Below are positions 11,901 through 24,000 of a stretch of DNA of 24,000 nucleotides, piece after piece. The DNA is from Brenneria roseae subsp. roseae (lineage in GTDB: Bacteria > Pseudomonadota > Gammaproteobacteria > Enterobacterales > Enterobacteriaceae). The DNA lies in the NCBI RefSeq assembly GCF_003115845.1, contig NZ_KZ819023.1, positions 124,920 through 148,919 on the forward strand, in the 5' to 3' direction. Positions within the stretch are counted from its first letter, which is position 1. Every line of letters starts with the position of its first letter. Made by a program: the position numbers and the translations under genes. The notes beneath the pieces are model-generated. The model saw nothing but the letters and a program-made list of their open reading frames with translations, made no database searches and was not told the DNA's origin.

Positions 11901-11971
11901 GAGTTTTCCAGCCTGGGGGAGGAGTGGTTTCCTCGTTGTCGTCAGTCGTTGGCCTGCAAGGAAAGTCCATC

Positions 11972-14548
11972 ATGCATACAGCCATTAATAGTTCCAGATT
12001 CGATGTGTTCAGGCAGGTTGTTGAGCAGTCTGTCGATGCCAAAGTGGTTATTGACGAAAACGGACAAATTGTTTTTTTTAATACCGCCGCGGAAGCGCTG
12101 TGGGGAGAACGCCGGGAGGATGTGCTTGGCCGGAAAGTCAGTCTTCTGATTCCCGATATGCATCCTTCTCCAACATGTAGCCAACTTGATGAACACTTTG
12201 TTCGTGTTTTGGGGGAGATGGCAGGCACCTACCGTGATATCTCGATCAATCTGATGGATGGCGCGGGGATTAAAACTATCGAGATCGGCCTGTCGCGGAT
12301 TAGCACGGCTGAACGGGTTTTCTATCTGGCTATTGCCAGGGATGTCTCCGTGGCTCGCCAGCAAGAGGAAGAGCGCCGCCTTCTGTCTCAGGCGCTGAAT
12401 GAGAGCGAATCAGCCATTTATATCACGGATGCTGACTGGCGCATCATCTATCTCAATGACGGTTTCACCCGGATGCTGGGCTACACGCTGGCAACCACGC
12501 AGGGGAAAAATCCCCCGCAGTTGCTGAGCCCGCAATCAACCAGCGCTCACAATGCGGCGGTATGGGAATTATTCAGGCAGGGTAAGCCATTCAGGGGCAA
12601 CCAGCTGTTATATCGGCGCGATGGCCGACGCCTGTGGGGAAATATTATGGAAACCCCCATTCACGATGACCAGGGGAATATTTCCCATATTGTCGGTGTG
12701 CTTACCGATATCACACAGGCGCAGATGTATCAATCCCTGCACCAGCAGGTGCTGGAGGATCTGGTTCGCGAGCAACCGTTGGAACTGGTGATGGAGCAGA
12801 TGTGTCGTCTTATTGAATCCATTCTCCCTGATACTATCGCCTCAATTATTCGGGTGGATGAACAGCAGTGTCTGCGCGCTCTGGCCGCTCCCAGCCTGCC
12901 TGCCGAATATATGCATTCATTCGATGGTTTGCCGATCGGCCCGTTGGTTGGATCCTGTGGCACCGCGGCTTTCCTGAACGAGTCGGTCGTGGTCACCGAC
13001 ATTGCACAAGATCCTCGCTGGGAGACGTGCCGCGATCGGGCTTTGGAACTGGGTTTACGCGCCTGTTGGTCAAGCCCCATTCGCAGCGGTGATGGCCGGG
13101 TGATCGGAACCTTCGCTTTTTATTTTCCCCAATGCCGTGAACCTGACATTTTGCACCGGGAAATCGCCGATATATGCACCCACTTATGTGCGCTGGCGTT
13201 AGAGCGTGAGGACGCCCGCCGTGATATCCGCCAACTGGCATTCTTCGATACGTTGACGGGACTGCCCAATCGAAATCTGCTGCTGGCCCAGGCCGATCGG
13301 ATGATTGAAGAGGTTGCGCGGGAAGGCGCTCCTTTGGCGGTACTGTTTATCGATTTGGATCACTTCAAGGCGATTAACGACGCCTACGGCCATGCGACCG
13401 GCGATGAACTGTTGCGCACGATTGCCGACCGAGTGCGGCAGGTCGCACAGGCATCGGATATCGTCGGCCGACTGTCCGGTGATGAGTTCGTTATTGTCCT
13501 GCCACACTGCGGCGAGGAGCAGGTCGTTGACATCCTCGAACGGCTACGCGGCGTGATTAGCCAGCCTTGCCAACTGGCTGGTATTACCGTGACGCCACAG
13601 TCCAGCATCGGTATCAGTCTGTATCCACATGACGGCAACGACATGACCACGCTGTTATTACACGCCGATCTGGCGATGTATCAGGCCAAACGGACCAGCC
13701 GTGGCGGTTTGAGTTTCTACAACAAGGAAATGAATATTGTTGCACGCGAGCGCATGACGATGGAGCATGAACTGCGTCTGGCGCTGGCTAATAAATCACT
13801 GAGTCTGGCCTGGCAGCCGCAGGTGAGACTGCGGGATGGCGAACTGAGCGGCGTAGAGGTGCTTGCCCGCTGGTATCATCCTGAGCTGGGATATATCCCG
13901 CCTGCGCGTTTTATTCCGCTGGCCGAAGAGAGCGGCCTGATCCACCAGCTTAGCGACTGGGTATTGGATACCGCTTGTCAGCAACTTGTCCAGTGGCGCA
14001 ATGCGGGTATTTCCGTGCCCGTCATTTCGATCAATCTCTCCCCGGCAAGTTTCCATAATCCGGATCTTCCCGCGGCGCTTTTTCGTACGCTGGAAAGATA
14101 TGGTCTGAAAGCAGCCGATCTGGTCATCGAAATCACGGAAAATATTCTGCTCGATAATCATCCTAATATCCTGACCTCAATAACCGCGATTCATCGCAGC
14201 GGCATCCAATTGTCCATTGACGATTTCGGTACGGGGTATTCCAGTCTGGGCTATCTGCGTCGGTTGCCGATCAGCGAACTCAAACTGGACAAGAGTTTTG
14301 TGGACGATCTTGAGCACGATGCCGCCAGCCGGGCGCTGAGCAAGGCGGTGGTCGGCATTGGCGAAGGTCTTGACCTCCGGCTGGTGGCGGAGGGGATTGA
14401 AAGGCGCGGGCAACTGGAAATTTTGCAGGAGCATGGATATCAGTCAGGTCAGGGATATCTGTTTTCAAAACCGCTGCCCGCCTCGGCCTTTGAGACGTGG
14501 CTGGCCGAATACTCGGCTAAACCAGGCGATATACAATCCGATGAGTAA
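11972..14548 (+). CDS. PAS-PAS-GAF-GGDEF-EAL c-di-GMP signalling protein (SGDEF variant cyclase domain plus intact-looking EAL phosphodiesterase domain)
   Basis: **Start:** ATG 11972 is preferred because AAGGAAAG lies 6 nt upstream. The track GTG 11924 sits only 1 nt after its GGAGG.
**Domains read from the translation:**
- PAS1: VVIDENGQIVFFNTAAEALWG.
- PAS2: IYITDADWRIIYLNDGFTRMLGY..ISHIVGVLTDITQ.
- GAF: GSCGTAAFLNESVVVTDI..GRVIGTFAFYF.
- GGDEF: FFDTLTGLPNR, FIDLDHFKAINDAYGH, RLSGDEF.
- EAL: EVLARW, NLSP, EITE, DDFGTGYSSL, KLDKSF, EGIE, QGYLFSKP. Confidence 0.9.
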   Translation: MHTAINSSRFDVFRQVVEQSVDAKVVIDENGQIVFFNTAAEALWGERREDVLGRKVSLLIPDMHPSPTCSQLDEHFVRVLGEMAGTYRDISINLMDGAGIKTIEIGLSRISTAERVFYLAIARDVSVARQQEEERRLLSQALNESESAIYITDADWRIIYLNDGFTRMLGYTLATTQGKNPPQLLSPQSTSAHNAAVWELFRQGKPFRGNQLLYRRDGRRLWGNIMETPIHDDQGNISHIVGVLTDITQAQMYQSLHQQVLEDLVREQPLELVMEQMCRLIESILPDTIASIIRVDEQQCLRALAAPSLPAEYMHSFDGLPIGPLVGSCGTAAFLNESVVVTDIAQDPRWETCRDRALELGLRACWSSPIRSGDGRVIGTFAFYFPQCREPDILHREIADICTHLCALALEREDARRDIRQLAFFDTLTGLPNRNLLLAQADRMIEEVAREGAPLAVLFIDLDHFKAINDAYGHATGDELLRTIADRVRQVAQASDIVGRLSGDEFVIVLPHCGEEQVVDILERLRGVISQPCQLAGITVTPQSSIGISLYPHDGNDMTTLLLHADLAMYQAKRTSRGGLSFYNKEMNIVARERMTMEHELRLALANKSLSLAWQPQVRLRDGELSGVEVLARWYHPELGYIPPARFIPLAEESGLIHQLSDWVLDTACQQLVQWRNAGISVPVISINLSPASFHNPDLPAALFRTLERYGLKAADLVIEITENILLDNHPNILTSITAIHRSGIQLSIDDFGTGYSSLGYLRRLPISELKLDKSFVDDLEHDAASRALSKAVVGIGEGLDLRLVAEGIERRGQLEILQEHGYQSGQGYLFSKPLPASAFETWLAEYSAKPGDIQSDE

Positions 14549-21332: not shown

Positions 21333-22022
21333 CTATTTTCTGAACATGATGGCGGCCCAACGCGCCAGCCCGGCGGTGACGGAGCCAAAATCATTACCGC
21401 TGGCGATGGGGATCGCAGGAAGCAGCTGTGCAATCGCCTGTTTCAGAATGGGGGAACGCGCACTTCCCCCCGTCAGATAGATGACATCCGGCTGCGTTTG
21501 GCTGGCTTTCAGTGCCAGTGTGATCTGCTGCTGAATACGCATCAATGGCTGGGTAATGGCGCTATTCAGTTCGTCGGCTGTTATGGCGACCGCAAGATCG
21601 GGATCAATAAAATGCAGGTCGGCCATCGCTTGCGGCCGGTCGGAGAGCGTGATTTTGCTCTCTTCGGCCCGTTGAACCAGCCGGTAGCTTAACCGCTGCC
21701 GCCAGACGGTCAACAGGCGTTTGACCTGTTCAGGCTGGCGGGCATCTCGAATCATTTCATTGATTAAGGTACGACAGGCCGGGCTATAGAATTCCTTCTG
21801 AGCCGGAATATCGTTAATCGCAACGGCGTTCCACCATGCCATGATTGGCAGAGCGATCCCCTTTTCGGTTTCACCGTTCATCCCCAACAACGGCATCAAT
21901 TGTTTAAACGCCAGCATGATATCAAGGTCGTTACCGCCAACGCGACAACCGCTGTGACCCAACAGACTTTGATGACGGTCATGTTGCTGGCGCCACTCGG
22001 GTTCCATCAGCAGTATGGAATA
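21333..22022 (-). pseudogene. yegD: 5'-truncated yegD-like Hsp70/actin-fold ATPase gene (C-terminal half only)
   Basis: The translation SLLGHSGCRVGGNDLD..GIALPIMAWWNAVAINDIPAQ..VWRQRLSYRLV..DVIYLTGGSARSP..DFGSVTAGLARWA matches residues ~225-450 of E. coli YegD (450 aa) as I recall it. Similarity stops at ..SILLMEPEW (about nt 22020). Upstream in frame is RKVYHNY and a TAG (22041-22043), where DIGGGTTD is expected. The N-terminal ATPase lobe is absent. Confidence 0.8.
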
Positions 22023-22045: not shown

Positions 22046-22377
22046 ATGAACAGCTGGAAAATCATAATTAAATCATAAAGTTATCCACGTATCAGTACTT
22101 TACAACAATCAAATGGTTTTGGTATTGAAAGACAGGTACAAACAGTAAGTGATTTTCTACAGTATGCCACGGTAGATCATCGCCTCGGTTATCAACTTGA
22201 TTCCAACGATTTTGAAGTACTTGAATCAGATTTAGGTAAATCCGCCTTTAAGGAGATGAACTGGAAGCCTAATAGCTCACTCGTAAGTTCTATAATGATG
22301 TTCTCAGTGGGCGTATCACTAGTGGCGTTCTTATTGTTGAAAACATAGACCGCCTTACACGTCATAAGCAACTATGA
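22046..22377 (+). pseudogene. Decayed serine recombinase (catalytic resolvase-type N-terminal domain only)
   Basis: **Frame 1:** MNSWKIIIKS*SYPRISTLQQSNGFGIERQVQTVSDFLQY..ESDLGKSAFK. It matches Y-x-R-V/I-S-T-x-x-Q, with the catalytic Ser codon at 22094-22096, and DLGxSAF+G.
**After a 1-nt shift near 22252:** GDELEA**LTRKFYNDVLSGRITSGVLIVENIDRLTRHKQL*. This carries the E-x-x-DRL-x-R motif.
**Lesions:** TAA at 22076-22078, a frameshift around 22252, tandem TAA TAG at 22270-22275, and no recognisable downstream recombinase domains. Confidence 0.72.
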
Positions 22378-22680
22378 GTAACACCTCGCATTGCTCGTTG
22401 CTACTGACCAGATGCCTTGTTCATTCGCTACTTGGAAGTAGCTCATTCACTGCGTTATCTGCTTTCTGATTGTAGTAGTACTCCATCATTAACTGGTCCC
22501 CAAAGTCTCTTTGAGTAACTACGCGGTCGTAAACTCCCTTGTCAGGTCGTCGGCTGTTTAAGCCTCCTAATCATCTACTCACAAGTGACCGAAGGGAACA
22601 ACCCCGATCCAATAATTACATCCCATAATGGTGAAAAGTACATCATTACTTATTACAGTACTGAATATGATTTTGATATG

Positions 22681-23613
22681 CTATTGGAATAATTTCTGCC
22701 AAAAAACAATAGGTGTTGAGGCATCAAAACCCAGGCCGAATCTGAAGAATATCCATGTACATAGAAATAATACAATGAGAAGAATGATTGCTAATACTGT
22801 TTTTCCTAAAAGACGAACAGCAATTGATGAAAGTTGCCCTAATAGTTCAAATTTACTATGTATTCTAATATCGTAACTAGTAATAAAAACATGGACCGAT
22901 TTGTTCTTGGAAACAGTGCCAATAACTAGTAATGTTATCAATGTGAAGTATATAGTCCCAAATAAAATAATAGATAAGAAACTTAATTCTGGAGTGCTGT
23001 GAAATTTGATAGTGATGAGCAACATTATTATTGCTAGCCAGCTCATTTGGATTACAGAGAAAAGTAAAAAGTTTAACTTAGCAATAGATGACCTATATCT
23101 ACTCGATACTAAATGAGTCGAGTAAAGCCTACCACTAAACATAGGTTCAAGCATTGAGATATGTGTTTCCCAATTTTTCTTCCAGTACTCACCACTTACA
23201 GACATAAACTGACAAAGAGATGTAATTACTACACCGATAAATGAAACCGCACCAATTGCTATAAGTATAGTACTGTCTCTTTTATCTAAATCATCAGGTT
23301 TAAAATAAGCTGAGAATAATAATCCACAAATGGTTAGTAACGCAGCTATTAATGTCCAACAGTAGGTGGCTCTTTTCCAGTACAGGTCAACTTCGATATT
23401 CCTTATTTGATGTGCTTTATCATATGCTTCTCTAAGTACTGTAACATCGTTTATAGAAATGGTATTTTCCCTTGTTATTCTATTACCAAGTAATGCCGAG
23501 AAATAGTTTCTATGAGAATTAACATAGTCAATTACGAATGGATCTACTTCATTACCAGTCATTGCTAATTTCTCGGGTGTATTTTTGACTTTTTTCTGAC
23601 TCATCCAGAACAT
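22681..23613 (-). CDS. Uncharacterised 310-aa integral membrane protein: ~80-aa polar N-terminal domain plus five predicted TM segments
   Basis: A 310-codon ORF is open in ~30% G+C DNA, where stop codons are frequent, so it is unlikely by chance. AAAGG lies 6 nt upstream of the ATG. Hydrophobic segments fall at about residues 83-104, 115-137, 180-202, 211-234 and 272-294. I recognise no catalytic motif. Confidence 0.8.
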   Translation of the reverse strand: MFWMSQKKVKNTPEKLAMTGNEVDPFVIDYVNSHRNYFSALLGNRITRENTISINDVTVLREAYDKAHQIRNIEVDLYWKRATYCWTLIAALLTICGLLFSAYFKPDDLDKRDSTILIAIGAVSFIGVVITSLCQFMSVSGEYWKKNWETHISMLEPMFSGRLYSTHLVSSRYRSSIAKLNFLLFSVIQMSWLAIIMLLITIKFHSTPELSFLSIILFGTIYFTLITLLVIGTVSKNKSVHVFITSYDIRIHSKFELLGQLSSIAVRLLGKTVLAIILLIVLFLCTWIFFRFGLGFDASTPIVFWQKLFQ

Positions 23614-23645
23614 AATAAACCTTTATTGATTTTGATGGATTTAGT

Positions 23646-23667
23646 TATATGAATCTTTCTTCATATA
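23646..23667. repeat. 8-bp perfect inverted repeat (candidate operator) in the divergent intergenic region
   Basis: TATATGAA-TCTTTC-TTCATATA lies 33-54 nt upstream of the 310-aa gene ATG (23613) and 63-84 nt upstream of the + strand small ORF. The AT-rich context raises the chance expectation. Confidence 0.3.
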
Positions 23668-23729
23668 TTATGATTTTTACTATGCAAGCGTTCTATAGGC
23701 AACAAGATGGCACGATATGGGGAACCATC

Positions 23730-23813
23730 ATGTCAGATGCTAAGTTACGAATGACACGCGATAAGGCCATTGAACTATATAAGCTACGTACAAGTACAGA
23801 TCTGGAAGGATAA
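23730..23813 (+). CDS. Hypothetical 27-aa hydrophilic peptide (MSDAKLRMTRDKAIELYKLRTSTDLEG)
   Basis: The ATG is preceded by GGGGA (23719-23723) at 6 nt. The stop (23811-23813) lies 6 nt before a perfect hairpin with a T-run. It is divergent from the 310-aa gene. It is too short for statistical support and could instead mark a small RNA. Confidence 0.25.
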   Translation: MSDAKLRMTRDKAIELYKLRTSTDLEG

Positions 23814-23818
23814 ATGGT

Positions 23819-23851
23819 AAAGTACTGGAACCATCAATTCCAGTACTTTTT
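23819..23851. terminator. Perfect 12-bp hairpin, terminator-like (better U-tract on + strand)
   Basis: AAAGTACTGGAA-CCATCAA-TTCCAGTACTTT is followed by TT, giving T5 overall on the + strand. On the - strand only TTT follows. It could terminate the + strand small transcript, a - strand gene ending at 23913, or both. Confidence 0.55.
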
Positions 23852-23912: not shown

Positions 23913-24000
23913 TTATTTCAATTTTAATAATGGTGTTCGAATGTTATTAACGATATCATCTATAAGGTACAATTCATTGGAAAGGGAATTTATATGGCTA
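23913..24000 (-). CDS. Possible 3' end of a further island gene entering from beyond the window (..SHINSLSNELYLIDDIVNNIRTPLLKLK*)
   Basis: The - strand frame is open from the window edge for 28 codons and ends at TAA (23915-23913), 62 nt before the hairpin. I see no homology, and the length is too short to be significant. Confidence 0.2.
   Translation of the reverse strand, partial: SHINSLSNELYLIDDIVNNIRTPLLKLK

What the first reader, a model, noticed from the sequence alone, without database searches (positions are those of the whole stretch)
22681..23613. Orphan 310-aa five-TM protein in the island: candidate membrane effector of unknown family
**Seen:**
- This is a long, clean ORF in very AT-rich DNA, with an SD-like AAAGG.
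- It has a polar ~80-aa N-terminal domain and then five hydrophobic segments.
- It contains no enzyme motif that I can name.

**Pattern memory (not a search):** the module EVDLYWKRATYCW-[TM1]-KPDDLDKRDS-[TM2]-GEYWKKNWETHISMLE resembles DUF4231/SLATT-type two-TM effector domains. Those have an aromatic/basic collar, a TM hairpin, then a W..E..L helix. They have been described in nucleotide-signalling conflict systems (Burroughs et al. 2015).

**Inference:** it sits at the edge of an acquired island beside a dead recombinase. That fits a phage-defence, abortive-infection or exclusion protein acting on the membrane. Any sensor or partner genes would lie beyond nt 24000. This is the best candidate in the window for something undescribed, but only one gene of it is visible.
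Basis: partly seen in the sequence, partly recalled or inferred. Interest (0 to 1): 0.7.

Follow-up and report, generated by a model that had tools for sequence, protein, structure and literature searches.

The report
Prophage-remnant 8xMP family membrane protein
The ORF is real and encodes a five-helix inner-membrane protein, but it is not an orphan: it belongs to a large catalogued family (Pfam 8xMP, "RipA family octameric membrane protein") of unproven function that travels on prophages and defence islands, and here it is the only intact gene left in a decayed prophage that has lost the gene's usual partner genes.

Summary
Observation confirmed: 22681-23613 (minus strand) is a clean 310-aa ORF in 34-37% GC DNA, with five hydrophobic helices and a polar N-terminus.

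Interpretation partly right.
- It is not an orphan. It scores 74 bits (cutoff 30) on Pfam PF24838 "8xMP". The family has about 2,300 clusters at 50% identity across many phyla.
- SLATT/DUF4231 membership is not supported by HMMs or by fold searches.
- The mobile and defence context is supported. Orthologues 77-85% identical sit in Pectobacterium prophages. Distant relatives sit inside type I R-M/Septu operons and integrase-flanked islands.

New here: close relatives form a cassette with one or two copies of an uncatalogued partner (TM anchor plus helical domain). The partner is always adjacent and on the same strand, and in one viral contig it is fused to 8xMP.

In this window the cassette is gutted. 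About 3.1 kb, including both partners, is deleted. An LprI gene stump sits 70 bp upstream, and a frameshifted serine-recombinase stump lies downstream. So the partners were lost; they are not hidden beyond nt 24000.

The ORF still shows purifying selection (dN/dS about 0.27).

Most likely it is an oligomeric inner-membrane prophage accessory protein for phage exclusion or abortive infection. That function is inferred, not shown.

The parts
22681..23613 (-). Intact 310-aa gene of the 8xMP / 'RipA family octameric membrane protein' family (five-TM enterobacterial prophage subfamily)
   Evidence: ORF. Pfam PF24838 at 74 bits against a cutoff of 30. 100% identical to Brenneria roseae DDT52_03035 and 78-81% identical to Pectobacterium proteins. 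dN/dS 0.26-0.29.
23017..23430 (-). Conserved 8xMP core, residues 62-199. Order: juxtamembrane helix with WKR, TM1, short acidic loop, TM2, cytoplasmic W-x2-NWE-x-H-x3-LE helix, start of TM3.
   Evidence: Pfam match covers residues 62-199. Invariant and near-invariant columns. pLDDT 80-95 in both models. Positive-inside count of 15 against 6 places both motif regions in the cytoplasm.
23614..23679 (-). 66-bp upstream junction segment with the AAAGG Shine-Dalgarno-like element. It has no homology to the upstream regions of intact relatives.
   Evidence: blastn homology to intact prophages stops 2 nt before the ATG and resumes at 23680. Comparison of upstream sequences. No convincing sigma-70 promoter here.
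23680..23850 (+). Stump of an LprI-family gene (last 43 codons, 23682-23810) followed by an inverted repeat (23819-23850). This is the left edge of a deletion of about 3.1 kb.
   Evidence: tblastn 93-95% identity to residues 96-138 of the 138-aa LprI genes of L085 and L088. blastn 87-90% identity to L085, L088, L089, L090 and L091, and the inverted self-match.
22377..22680 (.). Non-coding segment downstream of the gene, shared with intact prophages
   Evidence: blastn: the window 23615->22377 alignment runs on past the gene into L090 8934-9238 (82% over the whole match). Window 22633->22377 matches L088 10604-10853 at 77%.
22079..22365 (+). Pseudogene stump of the prophage large serine recombinase (N-terminal catalytic region, frameshifted)
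   Evidence: Colinear tblastn matches to the L088 recombinase: residues 6-56 (window 22079-22267) and residues 78-89 'LIVENIDRLTRH' (75% identity, window 22330-22365), in different frames. Also L085 recombinase residues 68-94 at 48%. The piece I scanned against Pfam did not reach the Resolvase HMM.
21333..22007 (-). 3' half of an Hsp70-family (yegD-like) chromosomal gene. It marks the chromosome/element junction and is the probable integration target.
   Evidence: Pfam HSP70 matches profile positions 250-374 only. An in-frame stop lies 11 codons upstream of the first ATG. GC break at about 22000.

Best explanation
What is shown:
- The gene encodes an inner-membrane protein of the catalogued 8xMP family (Pfam PF24838).
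- It is cargo of a lambda-like prophage that uses a large serine recombinase. In this Brenneria-type genome the prophage inserted into a yegD-like gene and then decayed.
- In intact Pectobacterium relatives the gene is the last or first member of a small same-strand cassette: a 61-aa protein, one or two partner proteins (N-terminal TM anchor plus a helical domain of about 170 aa), and 8xMP.
- In one viral contig the partner is fused to 8xMP.
- In this window two deletions removed the partners, the 61-aa gene and most of the recombinase. 8xMP is the only intact ORF left.

What is predicted:
- Topology is N-in/C-out with five TM helices.
- The two conserved regions (WKR collar before TM1; W-x2-NWE-x-H-x3-LE helix after TM2) lie side by side on the cytoplasmic face.

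What is inferred:
- The protein assembles into a ring-like homo-oligomer in the inner membrane. The family name says octamer.
- It acts as a prophage 'moron' that protects the lysogen against other phages. It would either gate or permeabilise the membrane when triggered (abortive infection) or block genome entry (superinfection exclusion).
- The partner would act as the cytoplasmic sensor or regulator.
- Many family members, including 51%-identical enterobacterial ones, occur without the partner. The orphaned Brenneria copy may therefore still work alone, which fits the purifying selection seen on it.
For: Family membership:
- Pfam 8xMP E=1.2e-20. All 140 diverse relatives hit the same model.

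Prophage origin:
- L085 and L088 place the orthologue between the GpA-type terminase and the large serine recombinase.
- 50 IMG/VR viral contigs carry relatives, the closest at 77-80% identity.
- Recombinase stump and LprI stump in the window.

Cassette:
- The partner HMM finds an adjacent same-strand partner in 22 loci, often in two copies.
- The fusion ORF in L100 has 8xMP at residues 9-273 and the partner at 242-432.

Deletion:
- Homology to the intact prophages jumps from the LprI 3' end (L090 4727-4898 = window 23848-23680) straight to L090 position 7999, 2 nt before the ATG.

Defence context in independent lineages:
- HsdR-HsdM-8xMP-DUF4357/PDC-S14-HsdS-PtuA-like-PtuB operons, and HsdM-HsdS-HsdR-8xMP.
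- C5 MTase / HATPase_c_3 operon next to integrases.
- PDC-S60 and PDC-S31 neighbours.
- A type I MTase is the immediate neighbour in 6 of about 78 loci.
- The upstream neighbour is on the same strand in 66 of 78 loci.

Structure and topology:
- All-helical models, core pLDDT 84.
- K+R count of 15 against 6.

Selection:
- dN/dS 0.26-0.29, the same as among partner-bearing orthologues.
Against: - No experiment on any member was found. PADLOC (2023) and PHROGs have no model for it.
- No match in 50,697 sequenced phage genomes.
- Immediate neighbours across the family are very heterogeneous: 137 Pfam families in 150 neighbours. Some copies sit among housekeeping genes, for example in the ilv locus in Dickeya and near prs in Shewanella.
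- There is no general bias toward prophage ends (KS p=0.72).
- The octameric state comes only from the family name; I could not model or find a structure.
- In this window the native upstream region is gone and no good promoter is detected, so this copy may be silent.
- The only characterised protein called RipA with these properties (Francisella) is linked to LpxA and envelope physiology, not to phage.
Confidence: 0.5

Rival explanations
1. Inert relic. This copy is just the last open reading frame of a dying prophage. Without its partners, its 61-aa leader gene and its native promoter it is not expressed or has no function. It stays open only because the deletions are recent.
For: - Two deletions flank it, and an LprI stump lies 70 bp upstream.
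- Recombinase pseudogene downstream.
- Only weak promoter-like sites, fewer than in shuffled sequence.
- All 5-TM orthologues of at least 77% identity that I examined keep a partner.
Against: - dN/dS against orthologues is 0.26-0.29, no higher than between partner-bearing copies. This mostly reflects older history, however.
- The ORF is full length and keeps every family-invariant residue.
- Partner-less relatives exist naturally: Dickeya at 51% identity, L006 and L008, and most of the family.
Confidence: 0.2
2. Envelope-homeostasis protein like Francisella RipA. It would be a homo-oligomeric inner-membrane protein whose cytoplasmic regions bind and modulate a soluble enzyme such as LpxA, affecting lipid A or envelope physiology rather than phage.
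For: - RefSeq and UniRef call the relatives 'RipA family octameric membrane protein'.
- Francisella RipA is described as a homooligomeric cytoplasmic-membrane protein with two essential cytoplasmic domains that co-precipitates with LpxA (PMC4322802; also PMC4688374 and PMC12444477).
- This matches the predicted N-in topology with two conserved cytoplasmic regions.
- Some family members lie among housekeeping genes.
Against: - I could not verify that Francisella RipA itself matches PF24838. No Francisella entry is among the listed hits.
- This copy and its closest relatives are prophage cargo.
- Other relatives are embedded in R-M/Septu operons. That is not where envelope housekeeping genes sit.
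- The family is patchy and not syntenic.
Confidence: 0.12
3. SLATT-type effector. It would be a two-TM pore-forming effector domain activated by a nucleotide second messenger or an associated sensor, as in CBASS-like, SMODS/SLOG or Hailong-type systems.
For: - The layout is similar: a juxtamembrane aromatic/basic collar, a TM hairpin, then a conserved cytoplasmic helix.
- It lies in mobile and defence contexts.
- 4 of 140 members give a very weak DUF4231 hit, best E 0.11.
Against: - No SLATT or DUF4231 hit for this protein at E<=10.
- The weak hits are rarer than those to unrelated TM-hairpin families: DUF2207_C in 38 members, DUF4131 in 21, Imm17 in 19.
- PADLOC TM-effector models do not match.
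- No PDB sequence or fold match, although solved TM effectors should be in that library.
- No cyclase, SMODS, SLOG, TIR or SAVED genes appear among the 25 most frequent Pfam families or the 25 most frequent PADLOC models of the adjacent genes.
Confidence: 0.08
4. Phage-benefit membrane function unrelated to defence, for example a holin/antiholin-like lysis-timing component or a lysogenic-conversion envelope protein.
For: - Prophage location close to an LprI-type lysozyme-inhibitor gene.
- Small multi-TM proteins with TM partners are typical of lysis cassettes.
- 4 of 140 members give weak Phage_holin_3_6 hits, best E 0.024.
Against: - The cassette is transcribed opposite to the flanking phage genes and sits away from any endolysin.
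- The family is absent from sequenced phage genomes.
- Many members are in non-phage R-M operons.
Confidence: 0.1

Closest known systems
Pfam PF24838 '8xMP' (RefSeq/UniRef name: RipA family octameric membrane protein)
   Same: Direct member. The HMM match spans 133 of 136 profile positions at 74 bits, and all family-conserved residues are present.
   Different: - This copy belongs to a longer (~300 aa) five-TM enterobacterial prophage subfamily. Most members are 210-260 aa.
- The family has no demonstrated function that I could find, and no solved structure in the PDB copy.
Francisella tularensis RipA (FTT_0181c)
   Same: Inner-membrane, homo-oligomeric, with two functionally essential cytoplasmic regions (PMC4322802). 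The predicted architecture here is the same kind. It is presumably the source of the family name; this is an inference.
   Different: - Francisella RipA is a chromosomal gene conserved in Francisella that is needed for intracellular growth, and it interacts with LpxA.
- The window gene is prophage cargo.
- Homology between the two was not tested here.
SLATT / DUF4231 two-TM effector domains (Burroughs et al. 2015, recalled from memory)
   Same: Overall layout of collar, TM hairpin and cytoplasmic helix. Presence in conflict and mobile loci.
   Different: - No HMM match.
- No recurrent nucleotide-signalling neighbours.
- No fold match.
- This protein has 3-5 TM helices rather than 2.
Two-gene prophage membrane exclusion modules such as lambda RexA/RexB (my own knowledge)
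   Same: Prophage-encoded and expressed as accessory cargo. A polytopic membrane protein is paired with a second protein. The proposed outcome is membrane-level exclusion or abortive infection.
   Different: - No sequence relationship.
- The partner here is itself membrane-anchored and can be duplicated or fused.
- No functional data.
Accessory ('hitchhiker') defence genes embedded in type I R-M operons
   Same: Distant 8xMP members sit between hsdM and hsdS, together with PDC-S14/DUF4357 and Septu PtuAB.
   Different: The window copy is not in an R-M operon. It is in a prophage remnant.

Membership tests
Pfam PF24838 8xMP / RipA-family octameric membrane protein | Score above the curated gathering threshold on the family HMM | tested here: met
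   74.1 bits against a cutoff of 30, E=1.2e-20, residues 62-199 on profile positions 2-134 of 136.
Pfam PF24838 8xMP / RipA-family octameric membrane protein | Conserved core residues (W-K/R-R before TM1; W..NWE.H...LE after TM2; G in TM2; S and W near TM3) | tested here: met
   W79 and E149 are invariant. R81, W144, N147, W148, H151, L155, E156, G127, S176 and W192 are at least 90% conserved across 140 members, and all are present here.
Pfam PF24838 8xMP / RipA-family octameric membrane protein | Homo-octameric assembly in the membrane | not testable with these tools
   No multimer prediction is available. No solved relative by sequence or by fold.
Pfam PF24838 8xMP / RipA-family octameric membrane protein | Homology to the name-giving Francisella RipA | not tested
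None is among the listed hits. The link rests on the RefSeq/UniRef name and on PMC4322802's description of RipA.
8xMP + partner prophage cassette (defined here) | Adjacent same-strand gene of the partner family (TM anchor plus helical domain) | tested here: not met
   The partner is present in 22 loci but absent from the window by tblastn. Its position is occupied by an LprI stump after a deletion of about 3.1 kb.
SLATT / DUF4231 | Match to a SLATT-clan HMM (DUF4231, SLATT_1-6 and related) | tested here: not met
   No hit at E<=10 for this protein. DUF4231 is touched by only 4 of 140 relatives, best E 0.11.
SLATT / DUF4231 | Genomic association with nucleotide-signalling or sensor genes (SMODS, SLOG, CD-NTase, TIR, SAVED) | tested here: not met
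   None of these is among the 25 most frequent Pfam families or the 25 most frequent PADLOC models of 150 adjacent genes. Single occurrences below the listed top 25 cannot be excluded.
SLATT / DUF4231 | Fold similarity to a solved or predicted SLATT domain | tested here: inconclusive
   8xMP is the only Pfam hit for this protein. NCBIfam gives nothing significant. The weak LptF_LptG and Cation_efflux hits in relatives are sub-threshold TM noise.
Known anti-phage defence systems (PADLOC-DB 2.0.0) | Match to any model of a known or candidate defence protein | tested here: not met
   0 families at E<=10. The partner also gives 0.

The most novel reading that the evidence does not exclude
The 8xMP protein together with its uncatalogued TM-plus-helical partner (and perhaps the 61-aa leader protein) is an undescribed prophage-borne, two-component membrane anti-phage module. 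The partner senses infection on the cytoplasmic face and opens or rearranges an octameric 8xMP ring. 8xMP on its own is a widely reused membrane effector that has also been recruited into type I R-M/Septu islands.
Probability: 0.3. Interest if true: 0.6.

Novelty: new member of a known kind. Interest (0 to 1): 0.3.

Why it matters
For this window the result is mostly clarifying. The 'orphan' is a member of an already catalogued family, and it sits in a gutted prophage.

The wider value lies in the family. PF24838 is large, spans many phyla and has no established function. Three observations give a concrete, testable lead for a possible new membrane-acting phage-defence module:
- a conserved partner that is adjacent and on the same strand;
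- a natural fusion of the two proteins;
- repeated embedding in R-M/Septu operons and prophage accessory regions.

The intact Pectobacterium brasiliense prophage cassette is the construct to test, not the Brenneria stump. If instead the Francisella RipA link holds, the family would connect a virulence-associated envelope protein to mobile-element cargo.

Tried and rejected
- Literature searches for '8xMP', 'PF24838', 'octameric membrane protein', and RipA with octamer, anti-phage or RipB found no paper on the family. The hits were RIPA lysis buffer, mycobacterial RipA peptidoglycan hydrolase, or the S. pneumoniae RipA Rosmer toxin. That toxin paper describes action on the DnaN sliding clamp and never mentions a membrane or octamer, so I judged it unrelated.
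- The Francisella RipA primary papers (PMC2573376, PMC3294868) are not held.
- E. coli genomes: no DNA match. Sequenced phages: no DNA or protein match. Plasmids: five weak partial hits.
- Fused family members carry no informative extra Pfam domain.
- I tested whether the gene sits preferentially at prophage ends. It does not (KS p=0.72), so I dropped that claim.
- I looked for a universal conserved partner across the family. There is none: 137 Pfam families among 150 neighbours.
- An exact-match look-up of the Brenneria protein to get sequence beyond nt 24000 failed.
- The source-name look-up of short members and the profile search gave only the generic family name.
- The recombinase piece I scanned (window ~22252-22551, one frame, so it holds only the 'LIVENIDRLTR' match) did not reach Pfam Resolvase. 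The identification rests on colinear tblastn matches.

Full report
**1. Observation**

It runs 22681..23613 on the minus strand, starts with ATG and encodes 310 aa. GC drops from about 0.53 to 0.34-0.37 from about nt 22000 to the window end. AAAGG ends 8 nt upstream of the ATG.

A hydropathy scan gives five hydrophobic segments. AlphaFold2 models five long helices in the same places; mean pLDDT is 73.6, and 80-93 over residues 54-160. At the local base composition, the chance that 310 codons stay open is about 1e-10. dN/dS against three orthologues is 0.26-0.29. This is a real gene.

**2. Family**

The protein is not an orphan. Pfam gives one clear hit: PF24838 '8xMP, octameric membrane protein family', E=1.2e-20, 74 bits against a cutoff of 30, residues 62-199. 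PADLOC and PHROGs return nothing, and NCBIfam returns only two non-significant hits far below their cutoffs.

- The identical protein is Brenneria roseae DDT52_03035. Relatives of 78-81% identity are in Pectobacterium, and more distant ones are in Dickeya, Citrobacter, Yokenella and Pantoea. Several are named 'RipA family octameric membrane protein' by RefSeq and UniRef.
- An exhaustive profile search finds 2,316 clusters at 50% identity, mostly 210-260 aa.
- 346 species-representative genomes from many phyla encode a relative.
- By the positive-inside rule (K+R 15 against 6) the topology is N-in/C-out. The WKR collar and the W-x2-NWE-x-H-x3-LE helix both lie on the cytoplasmic face.

**3. The SLATT idea**

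I tested it in four ways.
- No SLATT or DUF4231 hit for this protein at E<=10.
- Among 140 diverse relatives only 4 touch DUF4231 (best E 0.11). That is fewer than hit unrelated TM-hairpin families such as DUF2207_C (38), DUF4131 (21) or Imm17 (19).
- No significant sequence or fold match to any solved structure, using the full-length model and a better core-only model of pLDDT 84, and none in BFVD.
- No cyclase, SLOG, TIR or SAVED genes appear among the 25 most frequent Pfam families or the 25 most frequent PADLOC models of the adjacent genes.

**4. Where the gene lives**

In Pectobacterium brasiliense the orthologue lies inside a prophage. It sits between the GpA-type terminase/portal genes and a large serine recombinase, and it is transcribed against the flanking phage genes. 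IMG/VR holds 50 viral contigs with relatives, the closest at 77-80% identity.

Distant members sit in other mobile or defence settings:
- HsdR-HsdM-8xMP-DUF4357(PDC-S14)-HsdS-PtuA-like-PtuB operons in several alphaproteobacteria, and a related type I R-M gene set in a flavobacterial contig (L041).
- HsdM-HsdS-HsdR-8xMP in Maribellus.
- In Citrobacter, at the end of a C5 MTase / HATPase_c_3 operon beside two integrases and ParB.
- Near PDC-S60 and PDC-S31 candidate defence genes.

The association is not universal. Immediate neighbours are very heterogeneous, with 137 Pfam families among 150 neighbours. Some copies lie among housekeeping genes. The gene is not biased toward prophage ends, and it is absent from sequenced phage genomes.

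**5. A conserved partner**

Clustering the neighbours revealed a protein family of 200-255 aa, with an N-terminal TM anchor and a helical domain of about 170 aa. It has no Pfam or PADLOC match. An HMM of this family finds it in 22 of 138 fetched loci. It is always adjacent to 8xMP and on the same strand, upstream or downstream, and often in two copies. In L100 a single 445-aa ORF carries 8xMP (residues 9-273) and the partner (residues 242-432). A conserved 61-aa protein heads the cassette in three Pectobacterium loci.

All 5-TM orthologues of at least 77% identity that I examined have a partner. Some relatives at about 50% identity (Dickeya) and most distant members do not.

**6. What happened in this window**

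- The partner and the 61-aa gene are absent.
- Window 23680-23848 is the 3' end of an LprI-family gene: the last 43 codons, 93-95% identical at the protein level.
- Homology to the intact prophages resumes only 2 nt before the 8xMP start codon.
- About 3.1 kb is therefore missing: the LprI 5' part, a 254-aa gene, the 61-aa gene and both partners.
- Downstream, about 300 bp of shared non-coding DNA is followed by two colinear, frame-shifted fragments of the prophage large serine recombinase (residues 6-56 and 78-89, the latter 75% identical). These abut the 3' half of an Hsp70-family (yegD-like) chromosomal gene.

The picture is a prophage that integrated into that gene and was then eroded by deletions, leaving 8xMP as the only intact ORF in the roughly 2 kb of element visible. 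The chromosomal side is ordinary: ptsG-like, a PAS-GAF-GGDEF-EAL protein, nagZ, ycfP, ndh and ycfJ-like genes. No convincing promoter precedes the gene.

**7. Mechanism**

Shown: family membership, prophage origin, the cassette and the fusion, and the deletions.

Predicted: topology and helical fold.

Inferred: a homo-oligomeric (by name, octameric) inner-membrane assembly that serves the lysogen as a phage-exclusion or abortive-infection effector, with the partner acting as cytoplasmic sensor or regulator. I put about 0.5 on this overall reading. Within it, identity and history are near certain; the defence function is perhaps 0.4.

Rivals:
- This copy is an inert relic (0.2).
- It has a Francisella-RipA-like envelope/LpxA-modulating role (0.12). 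Francisella RipA is a homo-oligomeric inner-membrane protein with two essential cytoplasmic domains (PMC4322802, PMC4688374, PMC12444477), but I could not verify its homology to PF24838.
- It has a phage lysis or lysogenic-conversion function (0.1).
- It is a true SLATT effector (0.08).

**8. Verdict**

The gene is a new member of a known, functionally uncharacterised family, sitting in a gutted prophage. Interest for this window is modest. The partner cassette in intact Pectobacterium prophages is the lead worth testing experimentally.

Noticed in passing
window 21333-22007 (-): Only the C-terminal ~224 residues of an Hsp70-family (yegD-like) gene are present. The GC break and the recombinase stump start right after it. 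This suggests the prophage integrated inside this gene and that its 5' half lies beyond the far end of the element.
   Followed up: partly
window 22079-22365 (+): Frameshifted N-terminal stump of a large serine recombinase ('SYPRISTLQQ...', 'LIVENIDRLTRH'), colinear with the Pectobacterium prophage integrases. The rest of the gene is deleted.
   Followed up: yes
window 23680-23850 (+): Last 43 codons of an LprI-family (lysozyme-inhibitor-like) prophage gene, followed by a 32-bp inverted repeat. The 54-aa ORF 23649..23813 that the ORF list shows is this stump read from an upstream ATG.
   Followed up: yes
L100 7953-9290 (IMG/VR UViG_2869567588_000001): Natural fusion of an 8xMP domain and the partner domain in one 445-aa ORF, flanked by two further free partner genes.
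   Followed up: partly
L021 1872-12484 (also L059, L011, L057): One operon combines type I R-M (HsdR, HsdM, HsdS), 8xMP, a DUF4357/PDC-S14 protein and a Septu-like PtuA/PtuB pair. It is a compact multi-system defence island.
   Followed up: partly
L139 1804-8681 (Citrobacter; also L140, L141): A C5 DNA methylase, a ~1000-aa HATPase_c_3 protein, a 582-588-aa PF19192 protein and then 8xMP, inside an element with a tyrosine integrase, a large serine recombinase and two ParB/RepB genes. The two large proteins have no PADLOC match.
   Followed up: partly
L087 7143-8951 (Dickeya sp. CFBP 2040): A two-gene insert wedged between a LysR regulator next to the KARI gene and the ilvA-ilvD operon. It consists of a signal-peptide protein with weak LprI similarity plus a partner-less 8xMP gene.
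   Followed up: no
L085 6140-6325, L088 7802-7987, L001 8862-9047: A conserved (93-98% identical) acidic 61-aa protein with no family match heads the 8xMP cassette in Pectobacterium. It is missing from the window.
   Followed up: no
window 11924-14548 (+): An 874-aa PAS-PAS-GAF-GGDEF-EAL signalling protein lies between the ptsG-like gene and the nagZ/ycfP/ndh cluster.
   Followed up: no
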